From Candidatus Woesearchaeota archaeon (GTDB lineage Archaea; Nanobdellota; Nanobdellia; Pacearchaeales; GW2011-AR1), in contig CAZETU010000002.1 in the NCBI GenBank assembly GCA_964514585.1, positions 129,486 through 193,485 on the forward strand: a stretch of 64,000 nucleotides of DNA, written 5' to 3'. This document shows, piece after piece, positions 20,933 through 39,446 of the stretch. How positions within the stretch are numbered: the first letter of the stretch is position 1; each line of letters starts with the position of its first letter. The notes under the pieces were generated by a model. The model did not search any database and had not been told where the DNA came from. It saw only the letters and a program-made list of their open reading frames with translations. A program made the translations under genes and the position numbers.

Positions 20933-23524
20933 TTAACTAAAAATATCTTCTGCTCTTAGTTCTTTGTTTTGATTTTCTTTGGGCTTTTCTTCGACAATCT
21001 CAATGTCACTTTTAGGTTCTTTGAATGGCTTGACTTCTGCATTTTCAATTTCTTCCATTTTATTTTTTATTTCTTCCATTTCGCCTATTGGTTCTATTTT
21101 TGATTCGTGTTGTTCTTGAGGTTCTTCTTGTGTTGGTTCTTTGGCTTGAGCTTCTTCTTCTAACCCCTCCATTAAGTTTATTTCTGGTTTTTGAATTTTT
21201 GCAATATTTTCAGAGGTTATTTCTGGTTTTTCTTGAGCTTCTTCTTGGATTGGCTCGGGTTCTGGCTCATTAATGTTTTCACCATTTTCTAATTTTTGGA
21301 CTATCCGTGAAATTTCGTGTGCGGCGTCTGCGTTTACTGAGATTGAGTCTATTCCTTGTTTGATTAGAAATTCGACCATTTCTTTTTTGGAACCAGCTTG
21401 TCCGCAGATTGAGGTTTCGACGTTTTGTTTTTTACATTCTCTGATTACTCTTGAGATTTGTTTTAGGACTGCCCAGTTCATTTCGTCGTATACGTATTGG
21501 ACGTCTTCGTTTCCTCGATCTGTTGCTAGGGTATACTGTGTTAGGTCGTTTGTTCCAAATGAGATGAAGTCGATTCCTTCTTCGCAGATGTCTTTGATTA
21601 GGATTGATGCGGCTGGAGTTTCTATCATGACTCCGAATTTGACGTTGTCGATTTGCATTTCTTGGAAAATTGTTTTTGCTTGTTTTACTTCGTCTGTTGA
21701 AATTACTTGTGGGAACATGACTCCTAACTTGTGTCCTTTGTCGGCTAATTCTTTGACGGCTTGTAGTTCTGCTTTTAGAATTTTTGGATGTTTTAGTGAA
21801 AATCTTATTCCGTGGTTTCCAAGCATTGGGTTTTTTTCTGTTTCTTTTGGGGCGCCTTCAAGGTTTGCATATTCGTCGCTTCTGATATCTGAAGTTCTGA
21901 CCCAGATTGGTTTTCCGATAAAGGCGTCTGCAATTTCTCCTAATCCTTTTTTTAACATTTCTTTATAGTCCTCTAATTTCCCTTCTTGTTCATAGGCGAT
22001 AGGGTGTTTGCCTGAATTGGCTATTATTCCTTCTAATCTTACGAGTCCGATTCCGTCAGCTTTGGTCCCGGCTGTTCTTTTGGAGAATTGTGGGAGGTCT
22101 AGCATGACTTTGATTTTTGTTTTTGTTTCGACTACTGGTAAGATTTCGACTTTTTTGTTTTGGGTTCGTCCTGTGAATACTTTTCCGTTGTATCCGTCTA
22201 CTGTTATTTCATCTCCGTCTTTTAGGACTTCGAGTGCGTTTTGTGCTCCGACGATTGCTGGTATACCCATTTCTCTTGAGACTATTGCTGCGTGTGCTGT
22301 GACGCCGCCTTCGGAAGTTACTATTGCTGAGGCTTTTTGCATTGATACGACCATGTCTGGGTTTGTCATTGTTGTTACTAAAATATCTCCTTGCTTGATT
22401 TTTCCTAGGTCTTTCATTGAGTGGATAATTTTTACTATACCTGAAGCGATTCCTGGCGAGGCGGCCATGCCTTGTGTTATGATTTGTCCGTCTAGTTCTT
22501 CTCTTTCTTTGGTTTCTTCTTTTAGGGTTGTTATTGGTCTTGTTTGTAAAATGTAGATATCGTCGTTTTCAATTGCGAATTCTATGTCTTGAGGGGCTTC
22601 GTAATGTTCTTCGATTTTTATTGCTAATTCTGCTAGTTGTTTTATCTCATAAGTTTTTAGGGTTCTTTTAGTTGATATTTCTGGAGTTAGTTGTATTGTT
22701 TTTGTAAGCCCGCCGGCTGTTCTCACGACTGCTAATTTTTTGTCTGAGATTTTTTCTTCTGTTATTTCTAGGTTTTTTGTGACTACATATTGATCGGGTT
22801 TGATTTTTCCTGAGACGATTCCCTCACCTTGTCCGAAGACTGCTTCGATTAATATTTCCTCGGTGTTTTTTATTGGGTGTTTTGAAAATATTACTCCTGA
22901 TTTGTCTGAGTTGACCATTTTTTGAACGATTACTGCGATGCTTACGAGGTCGTCGAATCCTTTTTTCTTTCGATAGTAGAGGGATCTTGCTGTGAAGATT
23001 GAGGCGAAGCATTGTTTGACTTTTTGGATTAGTTCTGGGTTTCCTTTGATGTTTATGTAGGAGTCTTGTTGTCCGGCGAAACTTGCTTCTTTTGTGTCCT
23101 CTGCTGTTGCTGAACTTCTGACTGAGACAAAGACTGGTTCTCGGGAAGATTTTAGAATTGCTAGAGCGCCTGGTGAGTCTTGGAGTCCCGTGAGGTCTAT
23201 ATTGAAGTGGTCGTATGCTTCTATTATTTCTGATTGGAGTTTTGTGGGCATTTCTGCATTTATTATTATTTCTCTTATTTCTTCGGATCTCTCTGTTAAT
23301 TTTTCTGTTTCGTCAACATTGATTCTGTTTAAGAGTTCTCTGATTTGACCCTGAATTTTTGTTTCTTTTAGGAAATATAAGAATGCGTCGGTTGTGATTA
23401 CGAAGGCTTGGGGAACTGGGAATTTTGCTCTGAACATTTCGCCGAGGTTTGCGCCTTTGCCGCCTGCGATTCCAGTGTCTTCTTTAGATAAGTTTGAGAG
23501 CCATTTGATGTAGTTGTCACCCAT
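20933..23524 (-). CDS. ppsA: phosphoenolpyruvate synthase (pyruvate, water dikinase) with an ~100-aa acidic C-terminal tail
   Basis: GGKGANLGEM ATP-grasp start, phospho-His domain GGVTAHAAIVSREMGIPAIVG and the C-terminal PEP-utilizer TIM barrel (FISFGTNDLTQ). A TTTATATA box lies about 27 nt upstream of the ATG. Confidence 0.9.
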   Translation of the reverse strand: MGDNYIKWLSNLSKEDTGIAGGKGANLGEMFRAKFPVPQAFVITTDAFLYFLKETKIQGQIRELLNRINVDETEKLTERSEEIREIIINAEMPTKLQSEIIEAYDHFNIDLTGLQDSPGALAILKSSREPVFVSVRSSATAEDTKEASFAGQQDSYINIKGNPELIQKVKQCFASIFTARSLYYRKKKGFDDLVSIAVIVQKMVNSDKSGVIFSKHPIKNTEEILIEAVFGQGEGIVSGKIKPDQYVVTKNLEITEEKISDKKLAVVRTAGGLTKTIQLTPEISTKRTLKTYEIKQLAELAIKIEEHYEAPQDIEFAIENDDIYILQTRPITTLKEETKEREELDGQIITQGMAASPGIASGIVKIIHSMKDLGKIKQGDILVTTMTNPDMVVSMQKASAIVTSEGGVTAHAAIVSREMGIPAIVGAQNALEVLKDGDEITVDGYNGKVFTGRTQNKKVEILPVVETKTKIKVMLDLPQFSKRTAGTKADGIGLVRLEGIIANSGKHPIAYEQEGKLEDYKEMLKKGLGEIADAFIGKPIWVRTSDIRSDEYANLEGAPKETEKNPMLGNHGIRFSLKHPKILKAELQAVKELADKGHKLGVMFPQVISTDEVKQAKTIFQEMQIDNVKFGVMIETPAASILIKDICEEGIDFISFGTNDLTQYTLATDRGNEDVQYVYDEMNWAVLKQISRVIRECKKQNVETSICGQAGSKKEMVEFLIKQGIDSISVNADAAHEISRIVQKLENGENINEPEPEPIQEEAQEKPEITSENIAKIQKPEINLMEGLEEEAQAKEPTQEEPQEQHESKIEPIGEMEEIKNKMEEIENAEVKPFKEPKSDIEIVEEKPKENQNKELRAEDIFS

Positions 23525-23570: not shown

Positions 23571-23685
23571 GTATGTTATGCAATATATATGTTGTGATAT
23601 AGTATATGCGAGTATATAGGTTCTTTGAAATAAAAAATGTATGTTAAGTATATAGTGTAATATAGTATATTGGAGTATATAGGTT
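23571..23685 (+). repeat. two imperfect ~50 bp direct repeats ending in ATATAGTATAT-NNN-GAGTATATAGGTT (orphan promoter-like modules)
   Basis: 23597-23622 atatagtatatgcgagtatataggtt versus 23660-23685 atatagtatattggagtatataggtt. The 13-mer GAGTATATAGGTT recurs at 56890-56902 within the TATA region of the gene starting at 56908. Confidence 0.8.
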
Positions 23686-23830
23686 TGGGCAGAAAAAAAG
23701 GACGGCTGCCTGACGGGGCGACATAGCTACTTTTGATGTCGCTTCCGGTAATGAACTTGATGTCTGTTGCGGTTGCGGTTGATGTTAGTGATGCGATGAC
23801 GATGGCTAGAATGATTGTAAGGTGTTTCAT
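23576..23830 (-). CDS. small secreted protein, probably truncated or fused at the block's left junction (84 aa as read)
   Basis: GAGGAG, then 6 nt, then ATG. N-terminal signal peptide MKHLTIILAIVIASLTSTATA. After about residue 45 the frame runs through a T7 tract into the AT-rich backbone repeats and simply translates them (PIYSNILYYTIY / PIYSHILYHNIY). Confidence 0.35.
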   Translation of the reverse strand: MKHLTIILAIVIASLTSTATATDIKFITGSDIKSSYVAPSGSRPFFLPKPIYSNILYYTIYLTYIFYFKEPIYSHILYHNIYIA

Positions 23831-23863
23831 GGTTTTCTCCTCTTCGAGTTTCGGACTTTTCGT

Positions 23864-23947
23864 TTACCAGGCAAACATACATATGATTGCCCAGATGGTT
23901 ATTACGGTAATAATTGCTATCCTGCAAGTTTCCTTCTTGTGATTCAT
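23864..23947 (-). CDS. micro-ORF, 27-aa single-TM peptide (MNHKKETCRIAIITVITIWAIICMFAW)
   Basis: Not in the track (<60 aa). AGAGGG, then 4 nt, then ATG. Hydrophobic core. Stop TAA at 23864-23866. Confidence 0.35.
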   Translation of the reverse strand: MNHKKETCRIAIITVITIWAIICMFAW

Positions 23948-24002
23948 TTTGCCCTCTTGCAAATTTTTTTGTGGGGTTGATAACGGCACATTACGACTTA
24001 CC

Positions 24003-24054
24003 ATTATATGGTATTAATGATAAATTGAAACATGTCGTTATGTGGGCTTGTCAA
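24003..24054 (-). promoter_or_regulatory. bacterial sigma70-like elements (exact TATAAT at 24008-24003, exact TTGACA at 24054-24049, spacing non-canonical)
   Basis: Both hexamers read on the minus strand between the 24063-24101 hairpin and the micro-ORF at 23947. They are 40 nt apart, so they cannot be one promoter pair. Confidence 0.3.
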
Positions 24055-24062
24055 TAAGGTAA

Positions 24063-24101
24063 GGCCCGCGAGCGGTGTTAGTGATGATTCGCTCGCGGGC
24101 C
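24063..24101 (-). terminator. GC-rich stem-loop just downstream of the 117-aa gene
   Basis: GGCCCGCGAGCG (24063-24074) pairs perfectly with CGCTCGCGGGCC (24090-24101). 12 bp stem, 15 nt loop. On the minus strand it is followed by TTACCTTATT. Confidence 0.5.
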
Positions 24102-24119
24102 TGATGTTGTGGGGGTGGT

Positions 24120-24473
24120 TTAGACTGTGACTGGTTTGCGACGGCGAGACTGGGTCGGTTCTCTGAGGACCGTTATCTTAACGCCACGTTCCTTCTGGAC
24201 GCTTCTGATTTGCCCGAGGGTTTTGCCGGCTCGGAAGTATGGGCCGTATATCTGGAGCAACTCTGTTGTAGCCGATACGGGTGGTTCATGTTTGGCTTCT
24301 GAGTTGTGATCTGTGGCCTGGACGACGACTGAGCAGTCTTCCCATGCTCTGAAAATGGGCATGTGCTCGACCTCCGGGTGGGTGGCTACTCGTTTTTTCA
24401 GGCATTCCAAATCTGTACTCACAATGTGTATGTTCCCGCTTCTTGCTACGAATATTTCTTTGATCGTTTCCAA
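24120..24473 (-). CDS. hypothetical protein (117 aa), TTG start
   Basis: AGGAG, then 8 nt, then TTG. Protein-like composition, unlike the overlapping 71-aa frame starting at 24501. Confidence 0.55.
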   Translation of the reverse strand: METIKEIFVARSGNIHIVSTDLECLKKRVATHPEVEHMPIFRAWEDCSVVVQATDHNSEAKHEPPVSATTELLQIYGPYFRAGKTLGQIRSVQKERGVKITVLREPTQSRRRKPVTV

Positions 24474-24479
24474 TTTTAT

Positions 24480-25436
24480 GCTCCTGACAATCCGTTAACA
24501 TTTCTCCTCCTCAACGTTTCATCTCAACGCAACACTTTTCTCAGAAACCTCCTTTCTGGCTATATTGCCGTTAGCGCTTGTGGGCCTTTCCACCTTTTAT
24601 TTCTTAAGTCTCTTACCCACCAGCTTGCCTTCCTATTTTTCTTTTTGGGTCGCCACCTTCTTCTTGTTCCTATTCTTTCCAGTGGCAACAACAACCCATG
24701 CTCCGACTCCTTACCTTTCATCACTCCATTCCTCCGATGTACTTCCTTTTCTTCTTTGAATCTTTTGAAAGCCCATGAGCGTGATATGAGTAGCCTCATG
24801 GGCTCATAGTGTTCTGGAGCTACTCTTGTCCTTCCTTTGCTATGCTACGCTGCCCGTGTTGCTCGTAAGGAAGCTGCCCTTCTTCGACAAGGTTCTTTCC
24901 TTTCCACCTCCCCTTTTCTGGTAATTTTTGGGGCAGTGTTATTTCTTCTCCTTGCCTTCAGAACTTCAATGAGTGGCGAGTTGCATGTTTTGCATCTGGT
25001 TGTTCTCGCCCTGTGTTCTCTTGTCCCGATGGGGCAATTTCCCTTTTCGTTCGAGCATTCTTTCAGCATAACTAGCGTCCTTTCGCATTCCGTTTCCATT
25101 GCGAGTTTTTTACGCTTTCTCTAGTGCAATCTAGCACTCTGTAGTGATACTCTCCTTTCTGTGCTCATTAATATGGCCGTTCACCGATTGGCCTTTTTTG
25201 GTTTTTTCTTCTTCGGATTCTTTCCGCTCCTAGCTCTTATTTCCGCTTTTGTCAGTGGTCTCTTCTTACACTTTCCTGACACTAGAGCTCCCCTTCAAAT
25301 CCGTTTTCCGTTCTAGTTCTCACTCTTAGTACAATCTAACACCCTTACAATTGACCTCCTTTCGTTATCTATGTTCTTTCTTGTTTTCACGTCCCCTTTT
25401 TGTTTACCTCCTTTCCGGGGTTGATGTTGATATGAA
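24480..25436 (-). other. ~0.95 kb purine-rich (gene strand) segment without a convincing ORF; carries four GAAAGGAG(G/A)-type motifs and a repeated TGTTA..GATTGT motif
   Basis: The plus strand is C+T-rich. ACCTCCTTTC occurs at 24547-24556, 25354-25363 and 25406-25415, and CTCTCCTTTC at about 25150-25159. See findings. Confidence 0.6.
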
Positions 25437-25512
25437 TCGGGGCGGAAGGATTCGAACCTTCGACCTCCAGCTTCTGCTAAGCTGACGCGCTACCAAACTG
25501 CGCTACGCCCCG
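25437..25512 (-). tRNA. tRNA-like gene with a 9-nt anticodon loop (isotype undetermined)
   Basis: Hand fold: CGGGGCG TA GCGC AGTTTGGTA GCGC G TCAGC [TTAGCAGAA] GCTGG AGGTC GAAGG TTCGAAT CCTTC CGCCCCG A. Every arm is canonical except the loop. Confidence 0.7.
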
Positions 25513-25568
25513 GGCTGCTGCGTTATGGTATGTTATTTTATTTGCAGCAGGTGATGCAGATGTTAGTG

Positions 25569-26027
25569 TTATTTTCTTGCTTCCCTTATCGTTAACTCGG
25601 TCATCTTGTATGTTTTGATCGCAATCAGTTTAGCTAAAGAAAGCGATCCGATGAGACCGAGAATGAAGATGTGTAAGGTGATATCTTTTGTGCTCTTGCT
25701 CTTGATTATACTTGGAATCTGGAGCAGCTCTTCTCCCATTCTTTGGTATATTGATGGGATGGACTCGGTACATCCTTGTATGGTAGCCATTAGTCCGTTT
25801 CCTAATCCGTTTATCCCGTTGATGGGGAATAGGATTAGGCTTAATAGTCCGACGAAGCAGAGCGTTCCGATGATTCCTTTTGGAAGCACTGATGCGATTT
25901 TCCACGAGATTATTATGTGAACAATCGCTGTTGCGACGAAGAATGCTTCCTGATTGATTTGTGAGAGTACAATCAGGCTCATGAGTGTTACCGCTGCCAA
26001 AACTCTCTTTATGTTCTCATTAGACAT
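25569..26027 (-). CDS. integral membrane protein (152 aa, about 4 TM)
   Basis: GAAAGGAAGAGG immediately before the ATG. Four long hydrophobic segments. Confidence 0.65.
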   Translation of the reverse strand: MSNENIKRVLAAVTLMSLIVLSQINQEAFFVATAIVHIIISWKIASVLPKGIIGTLCFVGLLSLILFPINGINGLGNGLMATIQGCTESIPSIYQRMGEELLQIPSIIKSKSTKDITLHIFILGLIGSLSLAKLIAIKTYKMTELTIREARK

Positions 26028-26110
26028 CCTCTTCCTTTCAAAATGGGGAAAAGGCGTCCGTGCCTGATTCTCAATCCGTTCCTATAACAACAACGAGAGG
26101 CAAAGAGAAA

Positions 26111-26512
26111 CTATTTCTTGCGCGCAAGGAAGTCCTGGGTGAGGGTCTGGATTTCCTCAGTAGACTTTCCTTGCTCGACGAGAGTCTTGATTAGGGAGGA
26201 TTTTGTTTTGACAATTTTCTCCCTGTGAGCCTGCTCGTTTCTTTCTTTCAAGGCCATTGTTTCTTGTGTGGCCTCGATGTGAGCCTGCTCGTTTCTTTCT
26301 GAGACGGTTCTGTTGAACCGCTCATTGGCTCTGTCGACCATTTCTTGTCCGCCGACAGCTACTTGTGCACCGGCGGTTTCGAGAGCAAGAACCTTGATGC
26401 CGTTTTTGTTGACTGTCAATCCAGAGAATTTGGTGCCTCCGGTTTGACCTGCGCAGCCAGTGAGGGCGGTGATTGCTACGAGTGCTACTGCGATGAGGAT
26501 TTGTCTTTTCAT
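26111..26512 (-). CDS. lipoprotein (133 aa) with a duplicated ERNEQAH segment
   Basis: Start moved to MKRQILIAVALVAITALTGCAG, a signal peptide with lipobox L-T-G-C. The longer track ORF (to 26572) adds an implausible leader. Confidence 0.65.
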   Translation of the reverse strand: MKRQILIAVALVAITALTGCAGQTGGTKFSGLTVNKNGIKVLALETAGAQVAVGGQEMVDRANERFNRTVSERNEQAHIEATQETMALKERNEQAHREKIVKTKSSLIKTLVEQGKSTEEIQTLTQDFLARKK

Positions 26513-26523
26513 CTTGTGAACCC

Positions 26524-26592
26524 TTAAGAATTGTTTCTTAGGTAGATGGTGATTAGCGTGAGGCCAATCCACAACAAAATGTCGTTTCCCAT
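26524..26592 (-). CDS. micro-ORF, 22-aa TM peptide (MGNDILLWIGLTLITIYLRNNS)
   Basis: Not in the track. GAAGGAGAA directly before the ATG, so the spacing is very short. Hydrophobic. Confidence 0.3.
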   Translation of the reverse strand: MGNDILLWIGLTLITIYLRNNS

Positions 26593-26665
26593 TTCTCCTT
26601 CTTTCCTTTGGGTTTCGTTTGTTCCCTTGGGTGCGCCGTAGTAAAAAGCATCACCTTTGAGATAA

Positions 26666-26749
26666 TGATAATAGAAGGAATCGAACCTCCATCTCCCCAC
26701 AGATCTGAATATGAAACGTGGGTGGCCCTACCAATTGGGCGATACTATC
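26666..26749 (-). tRNA. tRNA-like gene (84 nt) with a 19-nt anticodon loop / extended anticodon arm (isotype undetermined)
   Basis: Hand fold: GATAGTA TC GCCC AATTGGTA GGGC C ACCCA [CGTTTCATATTCAGATCTG] TGGGG AGAT GGAGG TTCGATT CCTTC TATTATC A. Confidence 0.6.
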
Positions 26750-26802
26750 TGCATACTTCTTCGTCATTTGGGTTATCTGAACGATGTTGGTTCAGAACGA
26801 TT

Positions 26803-27000
26803 CTAGCTGTTTCTCAACGAGAATGTTGCAGCAGCTAGGGTAATTCCTGCGATGAAACCAGGAACAAGAGCTTTTCTGATTAGTTCAAATCCCTGGAATA
26901 TATCTTGACCTACCGCTTTGCCTAGGTTGCAAAATGCAATCGCGCCAAAGAGTATTGCGATTGCGAACAAACTATATGTTACTTTTTGTTGCGTTCTCAT
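26803..27000 (-). CDS. small membrane protein (65 aa, 2 TM)
   Basis: GAGGAGGG, then 5 nt, then ATG at 27000 (MRTQQKVTYSLFAIAILFGAIAF...). The 131-aa track ORF's N-terminal extension looks non-coding. Confidence 0.55.
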   Translation of the reverse strand: MRTQQKVTYSLFAIAILFGAIAFCNLGKAVGQDIFQGFELIRKALVPGFIAGITLAAATFSLRNS

Positions 27001-27029
27001 TATGTCCCTCCTCGCGTTAAGGTTACTGG

Positions 27030-27224
27030 TTAATTTGTTGTTTTGCGAATCAGGATTCTTCTGATGACTAGGAGCGTTATTACTACTCCTACTCCAAGTA
27101 AGCTCCATCCTTCTTGTTGCATGAAGAGCTTTCTTGTGGCTTCTATTAGGAATATGGAAGCCGCTACTGTGGTTACTTTTGCCAAAACCTCCATCCACTC
27201 TTTTCTGTTTTGTCGTGCGGTCAT
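27030..27224 (-). CDS. small membrane protein (64 aa)
   Basis: GGGGAGAA, then 6 nt, then ATG at 27224 (MTARQNRKEW...). Two hydrophobic segments. Confidence 0.5.
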   Translation of the reverse strand: MTARQNRKEWMEVLAKVTTVAASIFLIEATRKLFMQQEGWSLLGVGVVITLLVIRRILIRKTTN

Positions 27225-27263
27225 CGGCGTTCTCCCCATTTAGTGATGGTTGGTGTTAACAAT

Positions 27264-27316
27264 AAACGTGGAGCCAGCCAGAGCAATGCTCTGTTCCAGA
27301 TGCTGGCTCCACGTTT
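27264..27316 (-). terminator. 15-bp perfect stem-loop followed by TTTATTGTT on the gene strand
   Basis: AAACGTGGAGCCAGC (27264-27278) pairs with GCTGGCTCCACGTTT (27302-27316). The loop contains its own 6-bp hairpin CAGAGC/GCTCTG. A second hairpin lies at 27325-27360. Confidence 0.5.
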
Positions 27317-27428
27317 GGAAGTATCAGATGCTTACCTTTGGTGGTATGAGGTAGCATCTGCGTTGATTGACTGGAGTTAATTCGCTAGTTGTAAATAGTG
27401 TTCAGCCCCGAGCCGTCGCTGTGATGGG

Positions 27429-27650
27429 TTATTCGTTGTTCGGGTCGGTGATTGTGATGGTAGGGGTGTCGTTGATCGTGGTGATTGGCAAGCTCTTTAT
27501 CCCTTCGCAGAGAAGAATAATGGCAATCCCGATGAGAACGAAATTTATCCCACAGGCGATTGCGAAGTTTTTTTCCTTGCCAATGATCATAACTATGCCC
27601 ATGGTTATTATTGTGAATGCGATGATGATTATGATTAGTGTCCAGGTCAT
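27429..27650 (-). CDS. small membrane protein (73 aa, 2 TM)
   Basis: GAGGAAGG, then 4 nt, then ATG at 27650 (MTWTLIIIIIAFTIITMGIVMII...). The 198-aa track ORF upstream part is rejected. Confidence 0.6.
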   Translation of the reverse strand: MTWTLIIIIIAFTIITMGIVMIIGKEKNFAIACGINFVLIGIAIILLCEGIKSLPITTINDTPTITITDPNNE

Positions 27651-27921
27651 AATACCTTCCTCTAATAGAGTGGTGGATTTGGTGAAAACGATAAAACACA
27701 GAACCGGTTTACTAAGTGGCGTGACTGCTTTCGTCAAAGTTGCCGGTGGCTTTGCGCTTGTTGTTGGAGGTGCGAACTGGGCCGTGATGCGGTCGTGTAA
27801 GTGTCGACCTGACCCAGTTCGCGAATGGCCTATCCCTTTGGAAGCGAACTTAGGGAGGATCCTTCTTTGCCCTAACTGTAAGCTAAGGGCCCAGGATTTT
27901 TTCGGCCACCATCGTAATGAA

Positions 27922-28203
27922 TCAGTTGTGGAGCTGAGTGACTGCGGCTTCAATCTTTTCCGGATCGAATTCACACCCCAGCATCTCCTGTCGGATTTTC
28001 TGGGGGTCAAGGCCGCACACTCCATTTATGGCCACCGCTATTTCTGCAAGTGTTGCGTTGCAGCCATTCTCTGAATGGAGTGTTTTGATGGCTACTTTTG
28101 TGGGAAAGGTTGTCATTAGGGTTTGCGCGATTTCCCTTGTTCCTTTCCCTTTCATCTCTTGCGCCATTCGTTGTGCTGCGTTATGCTTTGTTACTATATT
28201 CAT
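27922..28203 (-). CDS. hypothetical protein (93 aa)
   Basis: AAGGGAG, then 5 nt, then ATG at 28203 (MNIVTKHNAAQRM...). The track start at 28269 would overlap the tRNA-like gene. Confidence 0.55.
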   Translation of the reverse strand: MNIVTKHNAAQRMAQEMKGKGTREIAQTLMTTFPTKVAIKTLHSENGCNATLAEIAVAINGVCGLDPQKIRQEMLGCEFDPEKIEAAVTQLHN

Positions 28204-28263
28204 AACGACTCCCTTCTTGTAGGTTTTTTTCTGTGCTAAGATTTTTGTTCCATTTGTGAATAA

Positions 28264-28338
28264 GGCCAACGGAGGGAATCGAACCCTCGACTTCTGCTAT
28301 TGACTAAGCAGCACTCTACCAAACTGAGTTACGTTGAC
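28264..28338 (-). tRNA. tRNA-like gene with an 8-nt anticodon loop (isotype undetermined; GTC/TCA triplets in the loop)
   Basis: Hand fold: GTCAACG TA ACTC AGTTTGGTA GAGT G CTGCT [TAGTCAAT] AGCAG AAGTC GAGGG TTCGATT CCCTC CGTTGGC C. Confidence 0.7.
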
Positions 28339-28388
28339 CCTGCTGCTTACACCCCGTTATTGTCTTCTCTCCCGTGTTTTGGAGAGAT

Positions 28389-28634
28389 TTAAGCTACATG
28401 GAGTTCTGCCCTTGGTTCCATGATTTCTTGGGTGTATTCTATCACAAGGACTTCTTCGGTTTCGATTCTCTCGATTTCCTTGATGACTCTCGAAATTGTT
28501 CGTTCGAGCCCTTCTTTCAACTTTCCTCCTGACTCCCTTCTTATCTCTTGGATCATGATCTCCCGATTTCCTTTTGCTTCGGGTCCGTGTCCAAGTACCT
28601 CTATGGCGATTTTCTCGATTTGTTGATTTCTCAT
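28389..28634 (-). CDS. hypothetical protein (81 aa), E/K/I-rich
   Basis: AGGAGAAG, then 6 nt, then ATG. Confidence 0.55.
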   Translation of the reverse strand: MRNQQIEKIAIEVLGHGPEAKGNREIMIQEIRRESGGKLKEGLERTISRVIKEIERIETEEVLVIEYTQEIMEPRAELHVA

Positions 28635-28681
28635 TTGTTGCTTCTCCTATTGCTTGGTTCTGGTGCGAGCCGATTGTTGAA

Positions 28682-28755
28682 AACCAGCGGAAGGATTTGA
28701 ACCTTCAACCTTAGCTTTACGAAAGCCACGCTCTAACCAGTTGAGCTACGCTGAT
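28682..28755 (-). tRNA. tRNA-Thr (anticodon CGT), canonical
   Basis: ATCAGCG TA GCTC AACTGGTTA GAGC G TGGCT [TTCGTAA] AGCTA AGGTT GAAGG TTCAAAT CCTTC CGCTGGT T. 7-nt loop with T33 and A37. Confidence 0.85.
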
Positions 28756-28768
28756 TACTTGGCTGATT

Positions 28769-29419
28769 CTAGTGATGCAGTGAGGCCACCAACGCAGAGT
28801 TTTCCTGATTTGCTTTTGGCCTCTTCTCTTTCCCTTCCCTTGATTTTTCTATGAGATCGACCAAGGGTTGTATGTCTATGCTCATTTTTTCGGCCCAGCT
28901 TTTTGCGAGCATGATATCTATTCCATCAAAAAGGGGGTCTTGGGTTTTCATAGCCTCTTTGAGAAAATGGAGGACCATCAGCGGAGTTCCCATTGTCTTA
29001 ATCTCTTCTACCTCTTTTGAGATATCGAGACCAAGGCTATCCGCGTGTATTTCCGCTATTATCAGATCGGTTACCCATCCTCTTTCGCTCTTTAGTGCGA
29101 ATTTTCGAGCTTGTTTGAGAGAGGACGTCATTATATTTTGATGCCCAGTTTTTTCGATACCTCTTGTTTCTTCCGAGATATCGAGCCCAGTTTTTTTCGC
29201 AATGTTTTTGGCCAGTTCCAAATAGGTGACATAGATAATATCCCCCTTCGCTGCGAACTTTCGAGCTCCTTGGAGGTACTTGGTTATGGAAATTTGATTT
29301 TCTGTTGGGGCGGAGGTTTCGATGGGTTCTGTGCTTTTTTCCATCTGAGTGGGGGTGCAAATTCCTCCCAGAATCATGCCTATCAAAGCCAGTGTTACGA
29401 TAACTCTTTCGGTATTCAT
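28769..29419 (-). CDS. membrane-anchored or lipoprotein-like protein with three ~45-aa internal repeats (216 aa)
   Basis: N-terminal hydrophobic segment ending GGIC. Repeats: LQGARKFAAKG..GLDISEETRGIEKTG, LKQARKFALKS..GLDISKEVEEIKTMG and a third degenerate copy. Confidence 0.65.
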   Translation of the reverse strand: MNTERVIVTLALIGMILGGICTPTQMEKSTEPIETSAPTENQISITKYLQGARKFAAKGDIIYVTYLELAKNIAKKTGLDISEETRGIEKTGHQNIMTSSLKQARKFALKSERGWVTDLIIAEIHADSLGLDISKEVEEIKTMGTPLMVLHFLKEAMKTQDPLFDGIDIMLAKSWAEKMSIDIQPLVDLIEKSREGKEKRPKANQENSALVASLHH

Positions 29420-29451
29420 TCTCTTTTCCTTAACTAGGGGTTGGCTGTGAA

Positions 29452-29523
29452 AACCAGCGGAAGGATTCGAATCTTCAACCTTAGCTTTACGAAAGCTATG
29501 CTTTATTGTTGAGCCATGTTAGT
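29452..29523 (-). pseudogene. decayed copy of the tRNA-Thr(CGT) gene
   Basis: The 3' 55 nt are nearly identical to 28682-28736, including the TTCGTAA loop. The 5' acceptor and D arm are mutated (2-nt deletion; the acceptor no longer pairs). Confidence 0.6.
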
Positions 29524-29528
29524 ATAAT

Positions 29529-29627
29529 GTAGGACCCGGTTGCAGAGGAAGGAGAAATGCGCTTGGGGCAGCTGTCTCCATTGCGCCCTTGCAATGCTGC
29601 TCTCATGTGAGGAGAGCCGGGTCCTAC
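29529..29627 (-). ncRNA. candidate structured RNA (~99 nt) closed by an 11-bp helix
   Basis: GTAGGACCCGG (29529-29539) pairs with CCGGGTCCTAC (29617-29627). Internal hairpins are CTCTC/GAGAG, ATTGC/GCAAT and GCAGC/GCTGC. The strand is uncertain. Confidence 0.35.
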
Positions 29628-29640
29628 GTCTTGCGGAGAG

Positions 29641-29760
29641 CTAGATTGCGAAGGCTAGGATTGTGGCGAAACTCGCAAGGACTATTGTGACTACGAGTTT
29701 TAGGTTTTGTTCGCCTTCTTCTTCTGGTGGATTGAGACGTTCTACTTGATATCTTTCCAT
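29641..29760 (-). CDS. micro-ORF, 39-aa C-terminal-TM peptide (MERYQVERLNPPEEEGEQNLKLVVTIVLASFATILAFAI)
   Basis: Not in the track. ATG at 29760, TAG at 29641-29643. Weak RBS. The overlapping 62-aa track ORF is in another frame and is Arg/Ser/Thr-rich. Confidence 0.4.
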   Translation of the reverse strand: MERYQVERLNPPEEEGEQNLKLVVTIVLASFATILAFAI

Positions 29761-29869
29761 CTTGTTGTTCTTCTGTTTGGGTTGTTGACGGTGCATTGTG
29801 ACCTACCATCATATAGAATCAATGGTAGGCGGACGGCGAACCGTCTAGTTTGTGGGGTGTGTCGTTAGG

Positions 29870-31777
29870 TTAGTTGTTTTGCTCTTGGAGGAGTTGTTTG
29901 AGTTTTTCTGGATCAATTCTTGAAGGATCCACTCCTCTGAGCATCGTTTCGACGTCTTGGACTTTTTGCACGCGATCGACTTCTTCGTCGGTGATGGGTT
30001 TTGCTGCCTCGTAGCGTGCCTGCTCTGGGTGTTCTGCCCTTAGTTCCAGGGATATGATGTCGAAGGTTGAAACTGTGATTACCTTCTCTCTGGTTTCAGG
30101 GTATGACACCTTGACCATTTCGTCCGGTGCGATTGCAGCCACTTCTGGATTTCTGAGGGAATAGCTTGTTCTGAATATTTTGCTTATCCCTTCGAGACGG
30201 AATCCGTAGACGGCTTGGCCGTTCGTGAGACTTAGAAGATTGACGCTCACGATCCTTCTTGTTAGGTGGAGAATCTTGGCCGGCATAGCTCCAGGGATGT
30301 GTTGATCTTGGCCGGCGGTTGCGATTTTCTGGGCGTAGTTATCTAGGGCTTCTTCTACTGTCGTCCCTTTCGCCTTTAGGGTGTTTGTAATGTCTGCTAC
30401 CGAGTAGCCTATCATTTGGCTTTCTTGGCACATCGGCATGATGTAAGTCAGTCGTCCGTGTATATTGTACGGAACGAATAAAGCTGGGAGTACTCCCGGA
30501 GACTCTGGCCACAAGGCGTTGCCGGCTTGGTAGATTTCGTTTTCGGTTACACCTTGAGTACTGTAGAAGGTTGTTTCTCCTGTGCATGTGTCGCTGACGA
30601 TGAATCCGGTGAGCGCTAGATCGGACTCCATGCTTGTGAAGCCGCTGTACCATTTGGTTCGTTGGCTTTTGTGGTCGTAGACCATATACCAACCTTTGGT
30701 TGGCTGCTGGGATTTGTCGCTTTGCCATATGGTATACATCCAATCGGCGTTTCGGTACCAGCCCCATTTCTTGATGTTGGATTCGAGTACATCTATTGGC
30801 ATTGCCCGATCGACCCATTTCGGAAGCTCATCGATTGAGTGATGTTCATGTTCGCCGGTTACCAAGTTGAAGGCTACGATACCTGTGACTTGGCGGGCAC
30901 TCCAGCCGTGCTTTCTCTCTATCGTTGAGACGGTGTAGTAAGGGTTCCAGTTGTCGTCTACTTCGAAGGTCCAGTCTTCTAGTATAGTGAAGCGGTAACC
31001 TTCAGCGCGTAATTTGCGCTTTGCTTTATATCCCCAGCAGGCGCTATTGACGTACTTGATATGGATTTCCTCGCCCTGGGCATTATGCTGTACGGCCTGT
31101 CCTTCTTTGTAGGGATCTTCGGCCGAGACTCTGAGGAAGCCTGGAACTTGTGGGTCTCTACGCCATGTTTTCCATCCTTGGAATTCTACGGGGTAGATAT
31201 ACCAAAGATGTTGATTAACGAACTGGATGGTGGGTTCTTCCCCGATTTCGTATCTTGAGCCTGGCACGACATTGTTCGGCATCTTGAACTTGCTAAGGGC
31301 CGTTTGTGCCGCTTTGAATGCTCTTTCCGGGGGCACTTGCAGGATGTGAGCGTTGTCGGAGGGGGTAATGACTTCTGCGAGGTTGCCTTCTATGACTTTG
31401 ACTTCGCCGATTAGCCCCGCTTTTTGCTTGGCATTTGTGGCATCCCATGTTCCGGTGATTACAATCCATAATCCCCAGACGAGCAAGAGGATGATGCCGA
31501 GTGCACCACCTGCGCATCCCGCCGTATCTTCATGGTTTGTCAATGTCCCTATAAACCCGCCGATTATGCATCCGATGACAACTGACCAGAAGACGGGGGT
31601 AGGGCCATAGAAGCCGATTGCTCCGAAGTAATAGACGCAGGACAGTATCAACCCATAAATGGCTCCGCCCAAAACTCCTGCGATAATGGTTTTGCCGAAT
31701 TCCTTTTTCGAGCATACTGCTCCGAAGACGGCGGTTGTTGTGACTGTCGCGATACCGACGATCAATGCGATCCACAT
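29870..31777 (-). CDS. large orphan membrane protein (635 aa): N-terminal Gly-zipper-like TM bundle plus a ~520-aa extracytoplasmic domain
   Basis: GAGG, then 7 nt, then ATG. About 4 N-terminal TM helices rich in GxxxG (GGAIYG, GGFIGT, GCAGGALG). The remainder is W/Y-rich and soluble-looking. No family recognised. Confidence 0.8.
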   Translation of the reverse strand: MWIALIVGIATVTTTAVFGAVCSKKEFGKTIIAGVLGGAIYGLILSCVYYFGAIGFYGPTPVFWSVVIGCIIGGFIGTLTNHEDTAGCAGGALGIILLLVWGLWIVITGTWDATNAKQKAGLIGEVKVIEGNLAEVITPSDNAHILQVPPERAFKAAQTALSKFKMPNNVVPGSRYEIGEEPTIQFVNQHLWYIYPVEFQGWKTWRRDPQVPGFLRVSAEDPYKEGQAVQHNAQGEEIHIKYVNSACWGYKAKRKLRAEGYRFTILEDWTFEVDDNWNPYYTVSTIERKHGWSARQVTGIVAFNLVTGEHEHHSIDELPKWVDRAMPIDVLESNIKKWGWYRNADWMYTIWQSDKSQQPTKGWYMVYDHKSQRTKWYSGFTSMESDLALTGFIVSDTCTGETTFYSTQGVTENEIYQAGNALWPESPGVLPALFVPYNIHGRLTYIMPMCQESQMIGYSVADITNTLKAKGTTVEEALDNYAQKIATAGQDQHIPGAMPAKILHLTRRIVSVNLLSLTNGQAVYGFRLEGISKIFRTSYSLRNPEVAAIAPDEMVKVSYPETREKVITVSTFDIISLELRAEHPEQARYEAAKPITDEEVDRVQKVQDVETMLRGVDPSRIDPEKLKQLLQEQNN

Positions 31778-31856
31778 AATTCTACCTCTCTTTCTTGGAA
31801 GTGTGTGTTTTAGTTAGGACGATTGGTGTTATGTCGTTAGTTTGTGGGGGGTGGTG

Positions 31857-32039
31857 CTAAGGCGTCTTCTTTTCGGTGAGAACATGTCTTTTCATAATCC
31901 TCTTTGTTATTGTGTTTTGCCGTTTTGCCGATCCTTTATGCTTGGCTGTGATCAATGCACCAAAAATGCCTGCTGCCATTGCACTTTTTGGTATCAGCCC
32001 TTTTGCTTCTGAGCACCATACGGGGATTTTGTTGCTCAT
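31857..32039 (-). CDS. small basic protein (60 aa) with one hydrophobic segment
   Basis: AAAGGAGAA, then 5 nt, then ATG. Confidence 0.5.
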   Translation of the reverse strand: MSNKIPVWCSEAKGLIPKSAMAAGIFGALITAKHKGSAKRQNTITKRIMKRHVLTEKKTP

Positions 32040-32051
32040 GCCTGTTCTCCT

Positions 32052-32162
32052 TTACCAAAGAAGTATTGTGATGATGACTGGGAACGTGTGATAAGCTCTC
32101 CAGTTTTCTGCGACCTGTAGACAGAAAATCTGGATTACCCACTTATTGGGTTCTTTCTTCAT
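32052..32162 (-). CDS. micro-ORF, 36-aa peptide (MKKEPNKWVIQIFCLQVAENWRAYHTFPVIITILLW)
   Basis: Not in the track. GAGGAGAA, then 6 nt, then ATG at 32162. Its stop lies 12 nt before the next start. First gene of the array. Confidence 0.4.
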   Translation of the reverse strand: MKKEPNKWVIQIFCLQVAENWRAYHTFPVIITILLW

Positions 32163-32203
32163 GCTTGTTTCTCCTCATAGGCTATTCCGTGTTTTATCGT
32201 CGA

Positions 32204-32317
32204 CGAAATACCGTAAATCTGGGGTATTTCGATTGATTTCGCGTTTGCGAAGCTAAGAATTCTTCTTTGAAAAATACCTTATTTCACGAAATTTTTGGTT
32301 TTTCCGTGAGGTATTTT
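32204..32317. promoter_or_regulatory. two inverted-repeat pairs of a GAAATACC-like motif upstream of the block's first gene (operator or leader hairpins)
   Basis: CGAAATACC (32204-32212) with GGTATTTCG (32223-32231). AAAATACCT (32271-32279) with AGGTATTTT (32309-32317), plus inner CACG/CGTG. Confidence 0.4.
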
Positions 32318-39192: not shown

Positions 39193-39263
39193 GGCCCCGT
39201 AGGCTAATGGTAGACCTTCTCGTTTACACCGAGATGGCCCAAGTTCGATTCTTGGCGGGGCCA
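39193..39263 (+). tRNA. tRNA-Val (anticodon TAC)
   Basis: GGCCCCG TA GGCT AATGGTA GACC T TCTCG [TTTACAC] CGAGA TGGC CCAAG TTCGATT CTTGG CGGGGCC A. The D stem has one mismatch. Confidence 0.8.
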
Positions 39264-39446
39264 TTAAGAATCTTCTTGTTCCAAGTTGCCAGGGCATAAC
39301 CCTTGTTTCATTCGGCCACGATTCTTGGCGGGCTATTTTTTAAATATTGTTTTTGCTTTTTGTTTTGAAATTTGGATAAAGTTTGTGTAAAATTATCCCG
39401 TTTTTGTCTTAATTTGTTAAATTTTCCCTAAATTTAAATAGTGTAA

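What the first reader, a model, noticed from the sequence alone, without database searches (positions are those of the whole stretch)
25437..25512. tRNA-like gene 1: perfect cloverleaf arms but a 9-nt anticodon loop
Hand folding gives a 7-bp Watson-Crick acceptor stem (CGGGGCG/CGCCCCG), D arm GCGC-AGTTTGGTA-GCGC, a 5-nt variable region AGGTC and T arm GAAGG-TTCGAAT-CCTTC. All are canonical and align position-for-position with bacterial tRNAs. The anticodon stem TCAGC/GCTGG encloses UUAGCAGAA, which is 9 nt. If two extra U-A pairs form, the result is a 7-bp stem with a 5-nt loop AGCAG. No 7-nt reading gives U33, an anticodon and purine 37 with a paired stem.

Expanded anticodon loops are otherwise known from frameshift-suppressor (quadruplet-decoding) tRNAs. 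Alternatively this could be a non-decoding tRNA mimic, for example a decoy or resistant substitute for anticodon nucleases, or a primer or tag. I cannot tell which.
Basis: partly seen in the sequence, partly recalled or inferred. Interest (0 to 1): 0.75.

Follow-up and report, generated by a model that had tools for sequence, protein, structure and literature searches.

The report
Bacterial-type tRNA-Pro gene, broken anticodon loop
A real, perfectly folded tRNA gene of bacterial proline type sits in foreign DNA inside a tiny archaeon's chromosome, but its anticodon loop has 9 bases instead of 7, so it is most likely a tRNA that can no longer decode, not a natural reader of longer codons.

Summary
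On the minus strand at 25437-25512 lies a tRNA gene (Rfam 60.4 bits) with flawless acceptor, D and T arms and a 9-nt anticodon loop, UUAGCAGAA. The sequence is identical in six independent assemblies. Its body is bacterial tRNA-Pro. All 128 or more genes sharing its 5' half have normal 7-nt proline loops.

The host is a Pacearchaeota-like DPANN archaeon. The gene lies in a roughly 8.4-kb, higher-GC, hypervariable slot between a HerA-like ATPase gene and PEP synthase. In three of seven related genomes that slot holds tRNA-like genes. Most have abnormal anticodon loops of 5, 6, 8, 9 or 17 nt.

The 9-nt loop equals a neighbouring tRNA's arm minus 7 nt between TAG repeats. No frameshift site in the window matches it, and the ProRS anticodon determinants G35 and G36 are absent.

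Best reading: a decoding-dead tRNA carried in mobile or foreign cargo, with a body that is still processable. Function as a longer-codon reader is not excluded but is unsupported. Moderate interest.

The parts
25437..25512 (-). The tRNA-like gene in question (t1). It has a bacterial tRNA-Pro body (C1:G72, A73) and a 9-nt anticodon loop.
   Evidence: Rfam 60.4 bits. ARAGORN. Identical in six assemblies. The 3' part matches real tRNA-Pro genes at 28 of 30 positions.
25472..25480 (-). The 9-nt anticodon loop UUAGCAGAA. It keeps the canonical frame, UU...AA, with five bases inside instead of three.
   Evidence: Direct reading. Rfam shows the insertion here only. The fold energies do not decide between readings.
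25467..25485 (-). The whole anticodon arm, UCAGC-UUAGCAGAA-GCUGG. The stem differs by one base (C27 to U) from the CCAGC/GCUGG stem of some bacterial tRNA-Pro(GGG) genes. The 12-mer GCUUAGCAGAAG equals the arm of t2 minus 7 nt.
   Evidence: 7 of 5000 shuffles reach the observed collinear match.
28264..28338 (-). Neighbouring tRNA-like gene t2. Its stems are perfect and its anticodon loop is 8 nt (UAGUCAAU). G-1 (at 28339) and C73 give a His-like 8-bp acceptor stem.
   Evidence: Rfam 50 bits. RNAfold cloverleaf, z = -3.7. ARAGORN has to accept a mismatched stem.
26666..26749 (-). Neighbouring tRNA-like gene t3. It has 17 nt between the anticodon stem halves. ARAGORN with intron detection reads it as tRNA-Glu(UUC) with a 10-nt intron. 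The insert contains the tandem UUCAUA/UUCAGA.
   Evidence: Rfam 44.4 bits. ARAGORN -i.
28682..28755 (-). t4, the only fully canonical tRNA in the cluster, tRNA-Thr(CGU).
   Evidence: Rfam 63.4 bits. ARAGORN.
29452..29523 (-). t5, a degenerate copy of t4. It shares a 58-nt, 91% identical 3' portion with t4 (an att-like direct repeat, 28678-28735 and 29448-29505). Its acceptor and D arms are broken.
   Evidence: Rfam 40.8 bits with mismatches. Repeat family D3. The fold is no better than shuffled sequence.
23850..32250 (.). The hypervariable, higher-GC slot (0.43-0.53 against about 0.36-0.40 in the flanks). It holds all five tRNA-like genes, ORFs with no known family, and the 635-aa protein.
   Evidence: Composition. 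No Pfam or PHROG hits. One ORF has no homologue in 5.8 billion proteins. Synteny with relatives.
29870..31777 (-). A 635-aa membrane protein of the slot. Its homologues, where named, are from CPR bacteria. It has one full-length structural match to an unnamed viral protein.
32430..34310 (-). A conserved HerA/mad8/CedD-like ATPase gene that bounds the slot on one side.
   Evidence: Conserved in L146, L148 and L150.
20933..23524 (-). The PEP synthase gene that bounds the slot on the other side. It served as the anchor for finding orthologous loci.

Best explanation
This is a genuine tRNA-derived gene. It is a bacterial-type tRNA-Pro whose 7-nt proline anticodon loop has been replaced by the 9-nt UUAGCAGAA, while the rest of the molecule stayed intact.

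It is part of foreign or mobile cargo filling a hypervariable slot between a HerA-like ATPase gene and PEP synthase in the chromosome of a Pacearchaeota-like DPANN archaeon.

Most likely it is a decoding-dead tRNA.
- Inferred: it can still be transcribed with its co-directional neighbours, trimmed by RNase P and tRNase Z, and given a CCA tail, because everything those enzymes read is canonical.
- Inferred from the published identity rules: it cannot be charged by ProRS, because G35 and G36 are missing, and no other synthetase's identity set fits.
- Inferred: it cannot present a normal triplet after a U33 turn.
- Shown as a sequence relationship, with the direction inferred: the loop arose by a small local rearrangement, not by design.

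Whether the intact body reflects recent arrival or selection for a structural role is not resolved.
For: Real gene, not an artefact.

Bacterial tRNA-Pro origin. The 25-nt acceptor and D-arm body occurs unchanged in at least 120 GTDB bacterial genomes and 8 viral contigs. Every one of these is tRNA-Pro (GGG, CGG or UGG) with a 7-nt loop, and 127 of 128 have C1. The independent 3' part matches at 28 of 30 positions. The best phage and plasmid hits are all 74-nt tRNA-Pro.

Archaeal host. The aIF-2, archaeal GluRS and L35ae models score above their curated cut-offs. The nearest PEP synthases are named Pacearchaeota, Nanoarchaeota or 'archaeon'.

Foreign and variable context. GC is raised. The ORFs have no known family. 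The 635-aa protein is otherwise from CPR bacteria and one virus. Orthologous loci in L008, L146, L148 and L150 keep the backbone but have entirely different slot contents.

Pattern across the slot. Of 8 slot tRNA-likes in 3 genomes, 5 have loops that are not 7 nt (5, 6, 8, 9 and 17 nt). One is degenerate, one is suppressor-like (CUA with C37 and A8) and one is normal. All 4 host tRNAs outside the slot are canonical.

Loop origin. GCT-TAG-CAGAAG in t1 equals GCT-TAG-TCAA-TAG-CAGAAG in t2 minus 7 nt. Only 7 of 5000 shuffles match as well. The t3 insert contains a tandem duplication.

No decoding need found. Candidate 4- or 5-base codons give 0-2 frame junctions, against a background of 4.5 and 0.9.

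Identity rules. E. coli ProRS needs G35, G36, A73 and G72 (PMC10404621).

Precedent. Archaeal tRNA clusters are linked to mobile elements, and almost all contain tRNA pseudogenes (PMC6333295).
Against: The body shows no decay at all. All 21 stem pairs and all tertiary positions are intact, and the same is true of t2 and t3.

If indels fell at random, three of them all landing in a 7-nt loop of a roughly 75-nt gene would have a probability of about (7/75)^3, or roughly 1e-3 (my estimate). So something preserves the body, or favours changes in the loop.

The loop keeps the canonical U32-U33 and A37-A38 frame around five bases. That is the layout of engineered quintuplet decoders (from memory: Anderson, Magliery and Schultz 2002).

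No expression data were available. No relative carrying the same gene was found, so conservation could not be tested. Only 64 kb of the genome was searched for frameshift sites.
Confidence: 0.5

Rival explanations
1. A non-decoding but functional tRNA-shaped RNA. The cloverleaf is kept because it serves the cargo genes. For example, it could act as an RNase P / tRNase Z cleavage signal that cuts the co-directional run of small ORFs into separate mRNAs. It could also be a decoy or binding platform. The anticodon loop is then free to drift.
For: All five tRNA-likes are on the same strand as the ORFs and alternate with them at 14-150 nt spacing. The bodies are intact while the loops vary in both directions across three genomes. 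Loop-only defects are far from random (my estimate of about 1e-3).
Against: There is no direct evidence of co-transcription or cleavage. Some slot tRNA-likes (t5, L008_b, L146_a) also have acceptor or T-loop defects that would impair RNase P/Z recognition. That looks like ordinary decay. tRNAs interspersed with small ORFs are also typical of ordinary phage tRNA regions.
Confidence: 0.2
2. A working extended-anticodon tRNA. The 9-nt loop UU-AGCAG-AA reads a 4- or 5-base codon (UGCU, CUGC or CUGCU) and shifts the frame, like laboratory frameshift suppressors. The 8-nt-loop neighbour would be a quadruplet reader.
For: The body is perfect and the loop frame is canonical. tRNA-Pro derivatives with an extra loop base are classic +1 suppressors (sufA6, sufB2; from memory). 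Mutants with 9- and 10-nt loops frameshift in E. coli, and a sponge mitochondrial tRNA-Gly with a 9-nt loop matches its shift site (PMC5009743). CUG is 5.7-fold enriched in slot genes compared with host genes.
Against: No matching frame junction was found in the window. The one +1-overlapping ORF pair has no matching codon. No plausible charging route exists, because ProRS needs G35 and G36 and there is no G3:U70, no U73 and no long variable arm. Sibling slot genes have 5- and 6-nt loops, which cannot decode. The loop looks like a deletion product.
Confidence: 0.08
3. A triplet decoder with an unusual arm. It would have a 6-bp (or slid 5-bp) anticodon stem, the 7-nt loop U-A-GCA-G-A, and anticodon GCA (Cys codons). 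It would be a hybrid-identity, mistranslating tRNA in the manner of tRNAProX, which also has A33.
For: ARAGORN's call is tRNA-Cys(GCA). tRNAProX tRNAs combine C1:G72 and A73 with non-proline anticodons and the rare A33, and they are active (PMC10404621). TGC is 4.5-fold enriched in slot genes. G37 fits archaeal tRNA-Cys (from memory).
Against: The other tRNAProX hallmarks are absent. The gene has A21 not G21, and G15:C48 not A15:A48 (direct reading). No ProRSx gene lies nearby. CysRS needs U73 (from memory), and this gene has A73. An extra stem pair or a 2-nt junction would misplace the anticodon relative to the acceptor end. A33 was found in 0 of about 264 background tRNAs.
Confidence: 0.05
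4. An assembly or sequencing artefact, or a chimeric contig that joins bacterial and archaeal DNA.
For: None was found. The hypothesis arises only from the bacterial-type gene sitting in an archaeal contig.
Against: Six assemblies made from different samples with different assemblers have the identical 76 nt and identical junctions on both sides, inside contigs of up to 448 kb.
Confidence: 0.01

Closest known systems
Bacterial tRNA-Pro (isoacceptors GGG, CGG, UGG)
   Same: C1:G72 and A73. The 25-nt acceptor and D-arm sequence is identical, and the 3' part matches at 28 of 30 positions. The anticodon stem is one base away from CCAGC/GCUGG.
   Different: The loop is UUAGCAGAA (9 nt), not UUNGGGW (7 nt). 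There is no G35, G36 or G37. The gene sits in an archaeal chromosome.
tRNAProX family of Streptomyces and Kitasatospora (tRNAProA, ProT, ProN; PMC10404621)
   Same: A tRNA-Pro body carrying a non-proline anticodon region. The bases AGC occur in the loop. One reading of the loop gives A33.
   Different: Those tRNAs have 7-nt loops, G21, A15:A48 and A34, and lie next to a ProRSx gene. None of these features is present here. They are shown to be charged and to mistranslate. Nothing of the kind is shown here.
Frameshift-suppressor tRNAs with enlarged loops. These include sufA6 and sufB2 (tRNA-Pro, 8 nt; from memory), 9- and 10-nt loop mutants in E. coli, engineered quintuplet decoders, and the sponge mitochondrial tRNA-Gly (PMC5009743).
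   Same: An enlarged loop on an otherwise intact tRNA. The canonical flanking bases are kept.
   Different: Those tRNAs keep their synthetase identity and have known target sites. Here the anticodon identity elements are lost and no target site was found.
Yeast mitochondrial tRNAThr(UAG) with an 8-nt loop, derived from tRNAHis (PMC3113583)
   Same: A natural tRNA with an enlarged loop that arose by insertion into another isotype's body. The window's neighbour t2 has a His-like body and an 8-nt loop containing UAG.
   Different: The yeast tRNA is conserved across 10 species, is charged by a dedicated ThrRS, and reads triplets. Here there is no conservation and no dedicated enzyme.
tRNA pseudogenes in mobile-element-linked tRNA gene clusters of archaea and bacteria (PMC6333295)
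   Same: A cluster of tRNA genes mixed with hypothetical ORFs in a variable region. A HerA-type gene lies nearby. Many members are defective. Bacterial-type tRNAs in an archaeon have been suspected before.
   Different: Here the defects are concentrated in the anticodon loop while the bodies stay perfect. Both insertion junctions are also secured inside long archaeal contigs, which the earlier study could not show.

Membership tests
tRNA (Rfam RF00005), canonical elongator | Cloverleaf scoring above the family's gathering score | tested here: met
   60.4 bits against 29, E=1.3e-10
tRNA (Rfam RF00005), canonical elongator | 5-bp anticodon stem, 7-nt loop, U33, purine 37 | tested here: not met
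   The loop is 9 nt. The only 7-nt readings give A33 and distort the junctions. None of about 264 background tRNAs shows this.
Bacterial tRNA-Pro | C1:G72 and A73, and body sequence | tested here: met
   Direct reading. At least 128 exact 25-nt body matches, all tRNA-Pro. The 3' part matches at 28 of 30 positions.
Bacterial tRNA-Pro | NGG anticodon (G35, G36) with G37 | tested here: not met
   The loop UUAGCAGAA contains no GG. The determinants are as described in PMC10404621.
tRNAProX (mistranslating tRNAs with a Pro body) | Rare elements G21, A15:A48, A33 and A34 in a 7-nt loop | tested here: not met
   The gene has A21, G15:C48 and a 9-nt loop. A33 appears only in the slid reading.
tRNAProX (mistranslating tRNAs with a Pro body) | An adjacent ProRSx gene | tested here: not met
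   No ProRS domain lies within 10 kb on either side (gene table).
Frameshift-suppressor or extended-anticodon tRNA | Enlarged anticodon loop on an intact body | tested here: met
Frameshift-suppressor or extended-anticodon tRNA | Cognate 4- or 5-base sites that restore a reading frame | tested here: not met
   0-2 candidate junctions against a background of 4.5 and 0.9. This covers the 64-kb window only.
Frameshift-suppressor or extended-anticodon tRNA | Aminoacylation and suppression activity | not testable with these tools
   This needs in vitro charging and reporter assays.
Intron-containing archaeal tRNA (bulge-helix-bulge) | An insert able to form two 3-nt bulges around a 4-bp helix | tested here: not met
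   A 2-nt insert cannot form the motif. ARAGORN with intron detection calls no intron in t1, although it does in t3.
tRNA pseudogene or relic in a mobile-element-linked tRNA cluster | Clustered with other tRNA genes and hypothetical ORFs in a compositionally atypical, variable region | tested here: met
tRNA pseudogene or relic in a mobile-element-linked tRNA cluster | Defects spread over the molecule, as expected of neutral decay | tested here: not met
   The defect is confined to the loop and all stems are intact. Compare t5, which is decayed throughout.
tRNA pseudogene or relic in a mobile-element-linked tRNA cluster | No expression, or no aminoacylation | not testable with these tools
   No transcriptome data were available.

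The most novel reading that the evidence does not exclude
The 9-nt-loop gene (UU-AGCAG-AA) and its 8-nt-loop neighbour are working extended-anticodon tRNAs carried by a mobile element of DPANN archaea. That would make them natural quintuplet and quadruplet decoders, used either to express recoded element genes located elsewhere or to perturb host translation.
Probability: 0.07. Interest if true: 0.9.

Novelty: new member of a known kind. Interest (0 to 1): 0.4.

Why it matters
Natural tRNAs with enlarged anticodon loops are very rare (PMC5009743). They bear on how fixed the triplet code is. If this one decoded, it would be a natural counterpart to engineered quadruplet and quintuplet systems.

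On the more likely reading, two things still matter:
- It is a secure case of a bacterial-type tRNA gene embedded in a DPANN archaeal chromosome. Both junctions are confirmed in six assemblies. An earlier survey of archaeal tRNA clusters could not separate such cases from contamination (PMC6333295).
- It identifies a syntenic hypervariable slot, beside a defence-type ATPase and methyltransferase pair, where tRNA-shaped genes with damaged anticodon loops but intact bodies recur. That pattern asks whether foreign tRNAs are selectively disarmed on arrival, or whether the cloverleaf is reused for something other than decoding.

It is also a practical warning. ARAGORN labels this gene tRNA-Cys and its neighbour tRNA-Thr, and both labels would corrupt any inference of tRNA complement for such genomes.

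Tried and rejected
- **Close relatives in deposited phages:** none.
- **Exact and degenerate patterns of t1 and t2 in IMG/VR:** none.
- **Loop plus T-loop pattern in JGI metagenomes:** 3 hits, none inside a cloverleaf, so they are chance matches. That collection evidently does not hold the window's own contig.
- **Related islands through the slot proteins.** The 635-aa family is chromosomal in CPR bacteria, with no odd tRNAs nearby. The 216-aa ORF has no homologue. The family is absent from IMG/VR.
- **Strain variation for covariation analysis:** all assemblies are 99.8-100% identical. The 43 differences in L003 lie at its contig end.
- **Alternative genetic code or read-through in the purine-rich 1 kb downstream:** one frame has fewer stops, but its translation is low-complexity, so this is not convincing.
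- **Programmed frameshift between ORFs 27922-28203 and 27429-28025 (+1 relation):** the overlap contains no matching codon, and the downstream ORF has its own start and ribosome-binding site.
- **att repeats at the slot borders:** none of 11 nt or longer.
- **Integrase or transposase within 10 kb either side:** none.
- **Sigma-70 promoter and intrinsic terminator scan:** promoters no more frequent than in shuffles, terminator-like hairpins somewhat more frequent but mostly on the non-coding strand. It was uninformative.
- **Integron-like cassette idea** (each ORF followed by a structured site): considered and dropped, because there is no integrase and no attC-type core motifs.
- **2-nt intron:** rejected, because it cannot form the splicing motif.
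- **Codon-usage matching:** CTG, TGC and ACC are enriched in the slot, but no reading fits the identity rules.
- **Isotype origin of t2 and t3 by blastn:** no clear answer.
- **Fold of the 635-aa protein against the PDB:** only partial OB-fold-like matches.

Full report
**1. Observation**

The feature is real and lies on the minus strand at 25512..25437. Read 5' to 3' it is:

CGGGGCG UA GCGC AGUUUGGUA GCGC G UCAGC [UUAGCAGAA] GCUGG AGGUC GAAGG UUCGAAU CCUUC CGCCCCG A

- Rfam's tRNA model scores it at 60.4 bits (gathering score 29, E=1.3e-10). The only misfit is two extra bases in the anticodon loop. ARAGORN also calls it.
- The 76 nt are identical in six independent assemblies of the same population, from ENA, JGI and Logan, and both flanks are identical too. 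An assembly error or a chimaera is therefore excluded for practical purposes.

**2. Can the loop be read as 7 nt?**

Only by distortion.
- ARAGORN's 'tRNA-Cys(GCA)' slides the stem to CAGCU/AGCUG. That leaves two bases between the D and anticodon stems and a 6-nt variable region, and gives the loop U-A-GCA-G-A with A33.
- In about 264 bacterial and phage tRNA calls used as a baseline, none lacked U33 and none had a loop other than 7 nt.
- Nearest-neighbour energies prefer closing two U-A pairs, giving a 7-bp stem and a 5-nt loop (-7.2 against -4.0 kcal/mol). The same model also over-closes the loops of the normal tRNA-Thr and of a real tRNA-Pro, so energy does not decide.
- What the sequence shows is the canonical loop frame, UU...AA, with five bases inside instead of three.

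**3. What the gene derives from**

The acceptor and D-arm 25-mer occurs unchanged in at least 120 GTDB genomes, all bacterial and from many phyla, and in 8 viral contigs. Every one of these genes is tRNA-Pro (GGG, CGG or UGG) with a 7-nt loop. The 3' part, which was not used in that search, matches the best of them at 28 of 30 positions. Even the anticodon stem is one base away from the CCAGC/GCUGG stem seen in some of them. Sensitive searches of deposited phages and plasmids return only 74-nt tRNA-Pro genes. So this is a bacterial tRNA-Pro in which essentially only the loop has been changed.

**4. Host and setting**

- The window is an archaeal chromosome. The aIF-2, archaeal-type GluRS and L35ae models score above their curated cut-offs. 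The closest PEP synthases are named Candidatus Pacearchaeota, Nanoarchaeota or 'archaeon'. The host is therefore a DPANN archaeon.
- The gene lies in a block of about 8.4 kb (roughly 23.85-32.25 kb) with higher G+C, 0.43-0.53 against 0.36-0.40 in the flanks.
- That block holds five co-directional tRNA-like genes that alternate with small ORFs:

| Name | Coordinates (minus strand) | Anticodon region |
|---|---|---|
| t1 | 25437-25512 | 9-nt loop |
| t2 | 28264-28338 | 8-nt loop, His-like G-1/C73 acceptor |
| t3 | 26666-26749 | 17 nt between stem halves; ARAGORN: tRNA-Glu(UUC) + 10-nt intron |
| t4 | 28682-28755 | normal Thr(CGU) |
| t5 | 29452-29523 | degenerate copy of t4, sharing a 58-nt, 91% repeat |

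- The ORFs match no Pfam or PHROG family, and one has no homologue in 5.8 billion proteins.
- The largest, at 635 aa, has homologues of 35-55% identity that, where named, come from CPR bacteria. It also has one full-length structural match to an unnamed viral protein: E=5e-31, TM about 0.65.
- No integrase, transposase or att repeat marks the borders.

**5. Comparative evidence**

- Locus L008 proved to be the orthologous locus of a related archaeon. Its PEP synthase is 76% identical, a 44-nt upstream element is 93% identical, and the 635-aa gene is 55% identical, all in the same order.
- Further relatives (L146, L148 and the sibling species L150-L156 from the same lake) share the backbone: L35Ae, L16, UPF0020 methyltransferase, a small ORF, the HerA-like ATPase, about 4-6 kb of unrelated small ORFs, then PEP synthase. 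The block is thus a hypervariable slot.
- The slot lies beside a conserved methyltransferase and ATPase pair that weakly resembles the defence components mad2 and mad8/HerA.
- tRNA-like genes occur in the slot in three of seven genomes. L008 has one with anticodon CUA, C37 and A8, and one with a 5-nt loop and a defective T-loop. L146 has one with a 6-nt loop.
- The slot tRNA-likes are no more alike than any two tRNAs, at 55-68% identity, so each genome acquired its own.
- The tally: five of eight have loops that are not 7 nt, one is degenerate, one is suppressor-like, and one is normal. The four host tRNAs seen outside the slot are canonical, one with an ordinary 88-nt intron.

**6. How the loop arose**

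The 12-mer GCUUAG-CAGAAG that spans t1's loop equals t2's arm, GCU-UAG-UCAA-UAG-CAGAAG, after removal of 7 nt between the two UAG repeats. Only 7 of 5000 shuffles of the arm reach that collinear match. The insert in t3 contains the tandem UUCAUA/UUCAGA. These are signatures of slippage or short-repeat deletion, not of a designed anticodon.

**7. Tests of decoding**

- E. coli ProRS needs G35, G36, A73 and G72 (PMC10404621). The loop has no GG.
- From general knowledge of identity rules, the gene also lacks G3:U70 (Ala), U73 (Cys) and a long variable arm (Ser, Leu).
- I searched the window for places where reading a matching 4- or 5-base codon would join two long open frames. The candidates for t1 gave 0-2 sites, against a background of 4.5±4.9 per 4-mer and 0.9±1.3 per 5-mer.
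- The one +1-overlapping ORF pair contains no matching codon.
- Slot genes are enriched in CTG, TGC and ACC relative to host genes, but no anticodon reading agrees with the identity elements.

**8. Interpretation**

The best-supported account is a decoding-dead tRNA carried in foreign or mobile cargo (confidence about 0.5).
- **Shown:** the bacterial tRNA-Pro origin, the archaeal host, the variable slot, the recurrence of loop-defective tRNA-likes there, the sequence relationship of the loop to t2, and the absence of matching recoding sites in 64 kb.
- **Inferred:** that the RNA is still transcribed and end-processed, that it is not charged, and that it does not decode.

The main difficulty is that the body is untouched, in t1, t2 and t3 alike. 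Three random indels all falling in the anticodon loop would be about a 1-in-1000 event. So either arrival was very recent and the loops were already abnormal in the donor, or foreign tRNAs are selectively disarmed at the loop, or the cloverleaf is kept for a structural role.

The structural role is the main rival, at about 0.2. Cleavage signals for RNase P and tRNase Z between the small ORFs would be one example.

Active extended-codon reading (about 0.08) and a tRNAProX-like triplet mistranslator (about 0.05) remain possible. Both fail the membership features that could be tested.

**9. Comparison with what is known**

Natural enlarged loops are known from yeast mitochondrial tRNAThr (8 nt, derived from tRNAHis; PMC3113583), from a sponge mitochondrial tRNAGly (9 nt), from one phage group, and from laboratory suppressors (PMC5009743). 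Archaeal tRNA clusters linked to mobile elements and rich in pseudogenes have been described. Bacterial-type clusters in archaea were suspected, but contamination could not be excluded (PMC6333295).

This case fits the last category. It adds secure junctions and a loop-specific pattern of damage. I file it as a new member of a known kind and rate it of moderate interest.

Noticed in passing
window 28264-28338 (-), G-1 at 28339: A second perfect cloverleaf with an 8-nt anticodon loop, UAGUCAAU. G-1 and C73 give a His-like 8-bp acceptor stem. ARAGORN mislabels it tRNA-Thr(AGU) by accepting a mismatched stem. This echoes the yeast mitochondrial tRNAThr, which has an 8-nt loop and derives from tRNAHis.
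   Followed up: partly
window 26666-26749 (-): A tRNA-like gene with 17 nt between the anticodon stem halves. ARAGORN with intron detection reads it as tRNA-Glu(UUC) with a 10-nt intron, which is near the lower size limit for archaeal introns. The insert contains the tandem UUCAUA/UUCAGA, and any bulge-helix-bulge motif would be weak.
   Followed up: partly
window 28678-28735 and 29448-29505: A 58-nt direct repeat (91% identical) covering the 3' part of tRNA-Thr(CGU) and of a degenerate copy 770 bp away. It looks like the att scar of an old integration into that tRNA.
   Followed up: partly
window 23577-23685 and 23656-23699; L008 11838-11881: A 63-nt AT-rich tandem repeat lies upstream of PEP synthase. 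A 44-nt element within it is 93% conserved in a relative whose PEP synthase DNA is only 79% identical. It is probably a regulatory element.
   Followed up: no
window 39319-39332: A 14-nt partial repeat (CGATTCTTGGCGGG) of the 3' end of the host tRNA-Val (39193-39263) lies 56 nt downstream of that gene. It may be a remnant of an integration or excision event.
   Followed up: no
window 32430-34310 and 34805-35884 (-): A conserved ATPase (mad8 E=2e-14; HerA; CedD E=6e-16) and a methyltransferase (mad2 E=9e-10) flank the variable slot in several relatives. All scores are below family cut-offs. They may form a methylation-associated defence module or a DNA-translocation module.
   Followed up: partly
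window 24500-25430 (minus strand): About 1 kb of strongly purine-rich sequence lies just downstream of the tRNA and has no clean ORF. One frame has only 7 stops in about 300 codons, but its translation is low-complexity and rich in K, R and E.
   Followed up: partly
L008 9296-9367 and 10423-10490; L146 7346-7415: Related archaea carry other odd tRNA-likes in the same slot. One is an amber-suppressor-type tRNA (CUA) with C37 and A8. One has a 5-nt loop and a defective T-loop. One has a 6-nt loop.
   Followed up: partly
window 29870-31777 (-): A 635-aa membrane protein with four N-terminal helices and beta-rich domains (mean pLDDT 77.7). Its family is otherwise found in CPR bacteria. The only full-length structural match is the unnamed viral protein A0A6G5YLZ4.
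   Followed up: partly
whole window: GC skew is extreme and uniformly positive, at 0.2-0.58 in most 2-kb windows, with negative AT skew. The cumulative skew rises steadily across all 64 kb. This suggests a very strong replication-strand bias on top of purine loading of the coding strands.
   Followed up: no
window 25513-25530 and 28339-28360 (minus strand leaders): The 5' leaders of the 9-nt-loop and 8-nt-loop genes both contain ATAACG...GCAGCAG just before position 1. This may be a shared promoter or processing element, or a trace of a common origin.
   Followed up: no
window 40477-40608: A 66-nt tandem repeat inside ORF 39801-40643 encodes a repeated SEAKSKLASEEKEL coiled-coil-like segment.
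   Followed up: no
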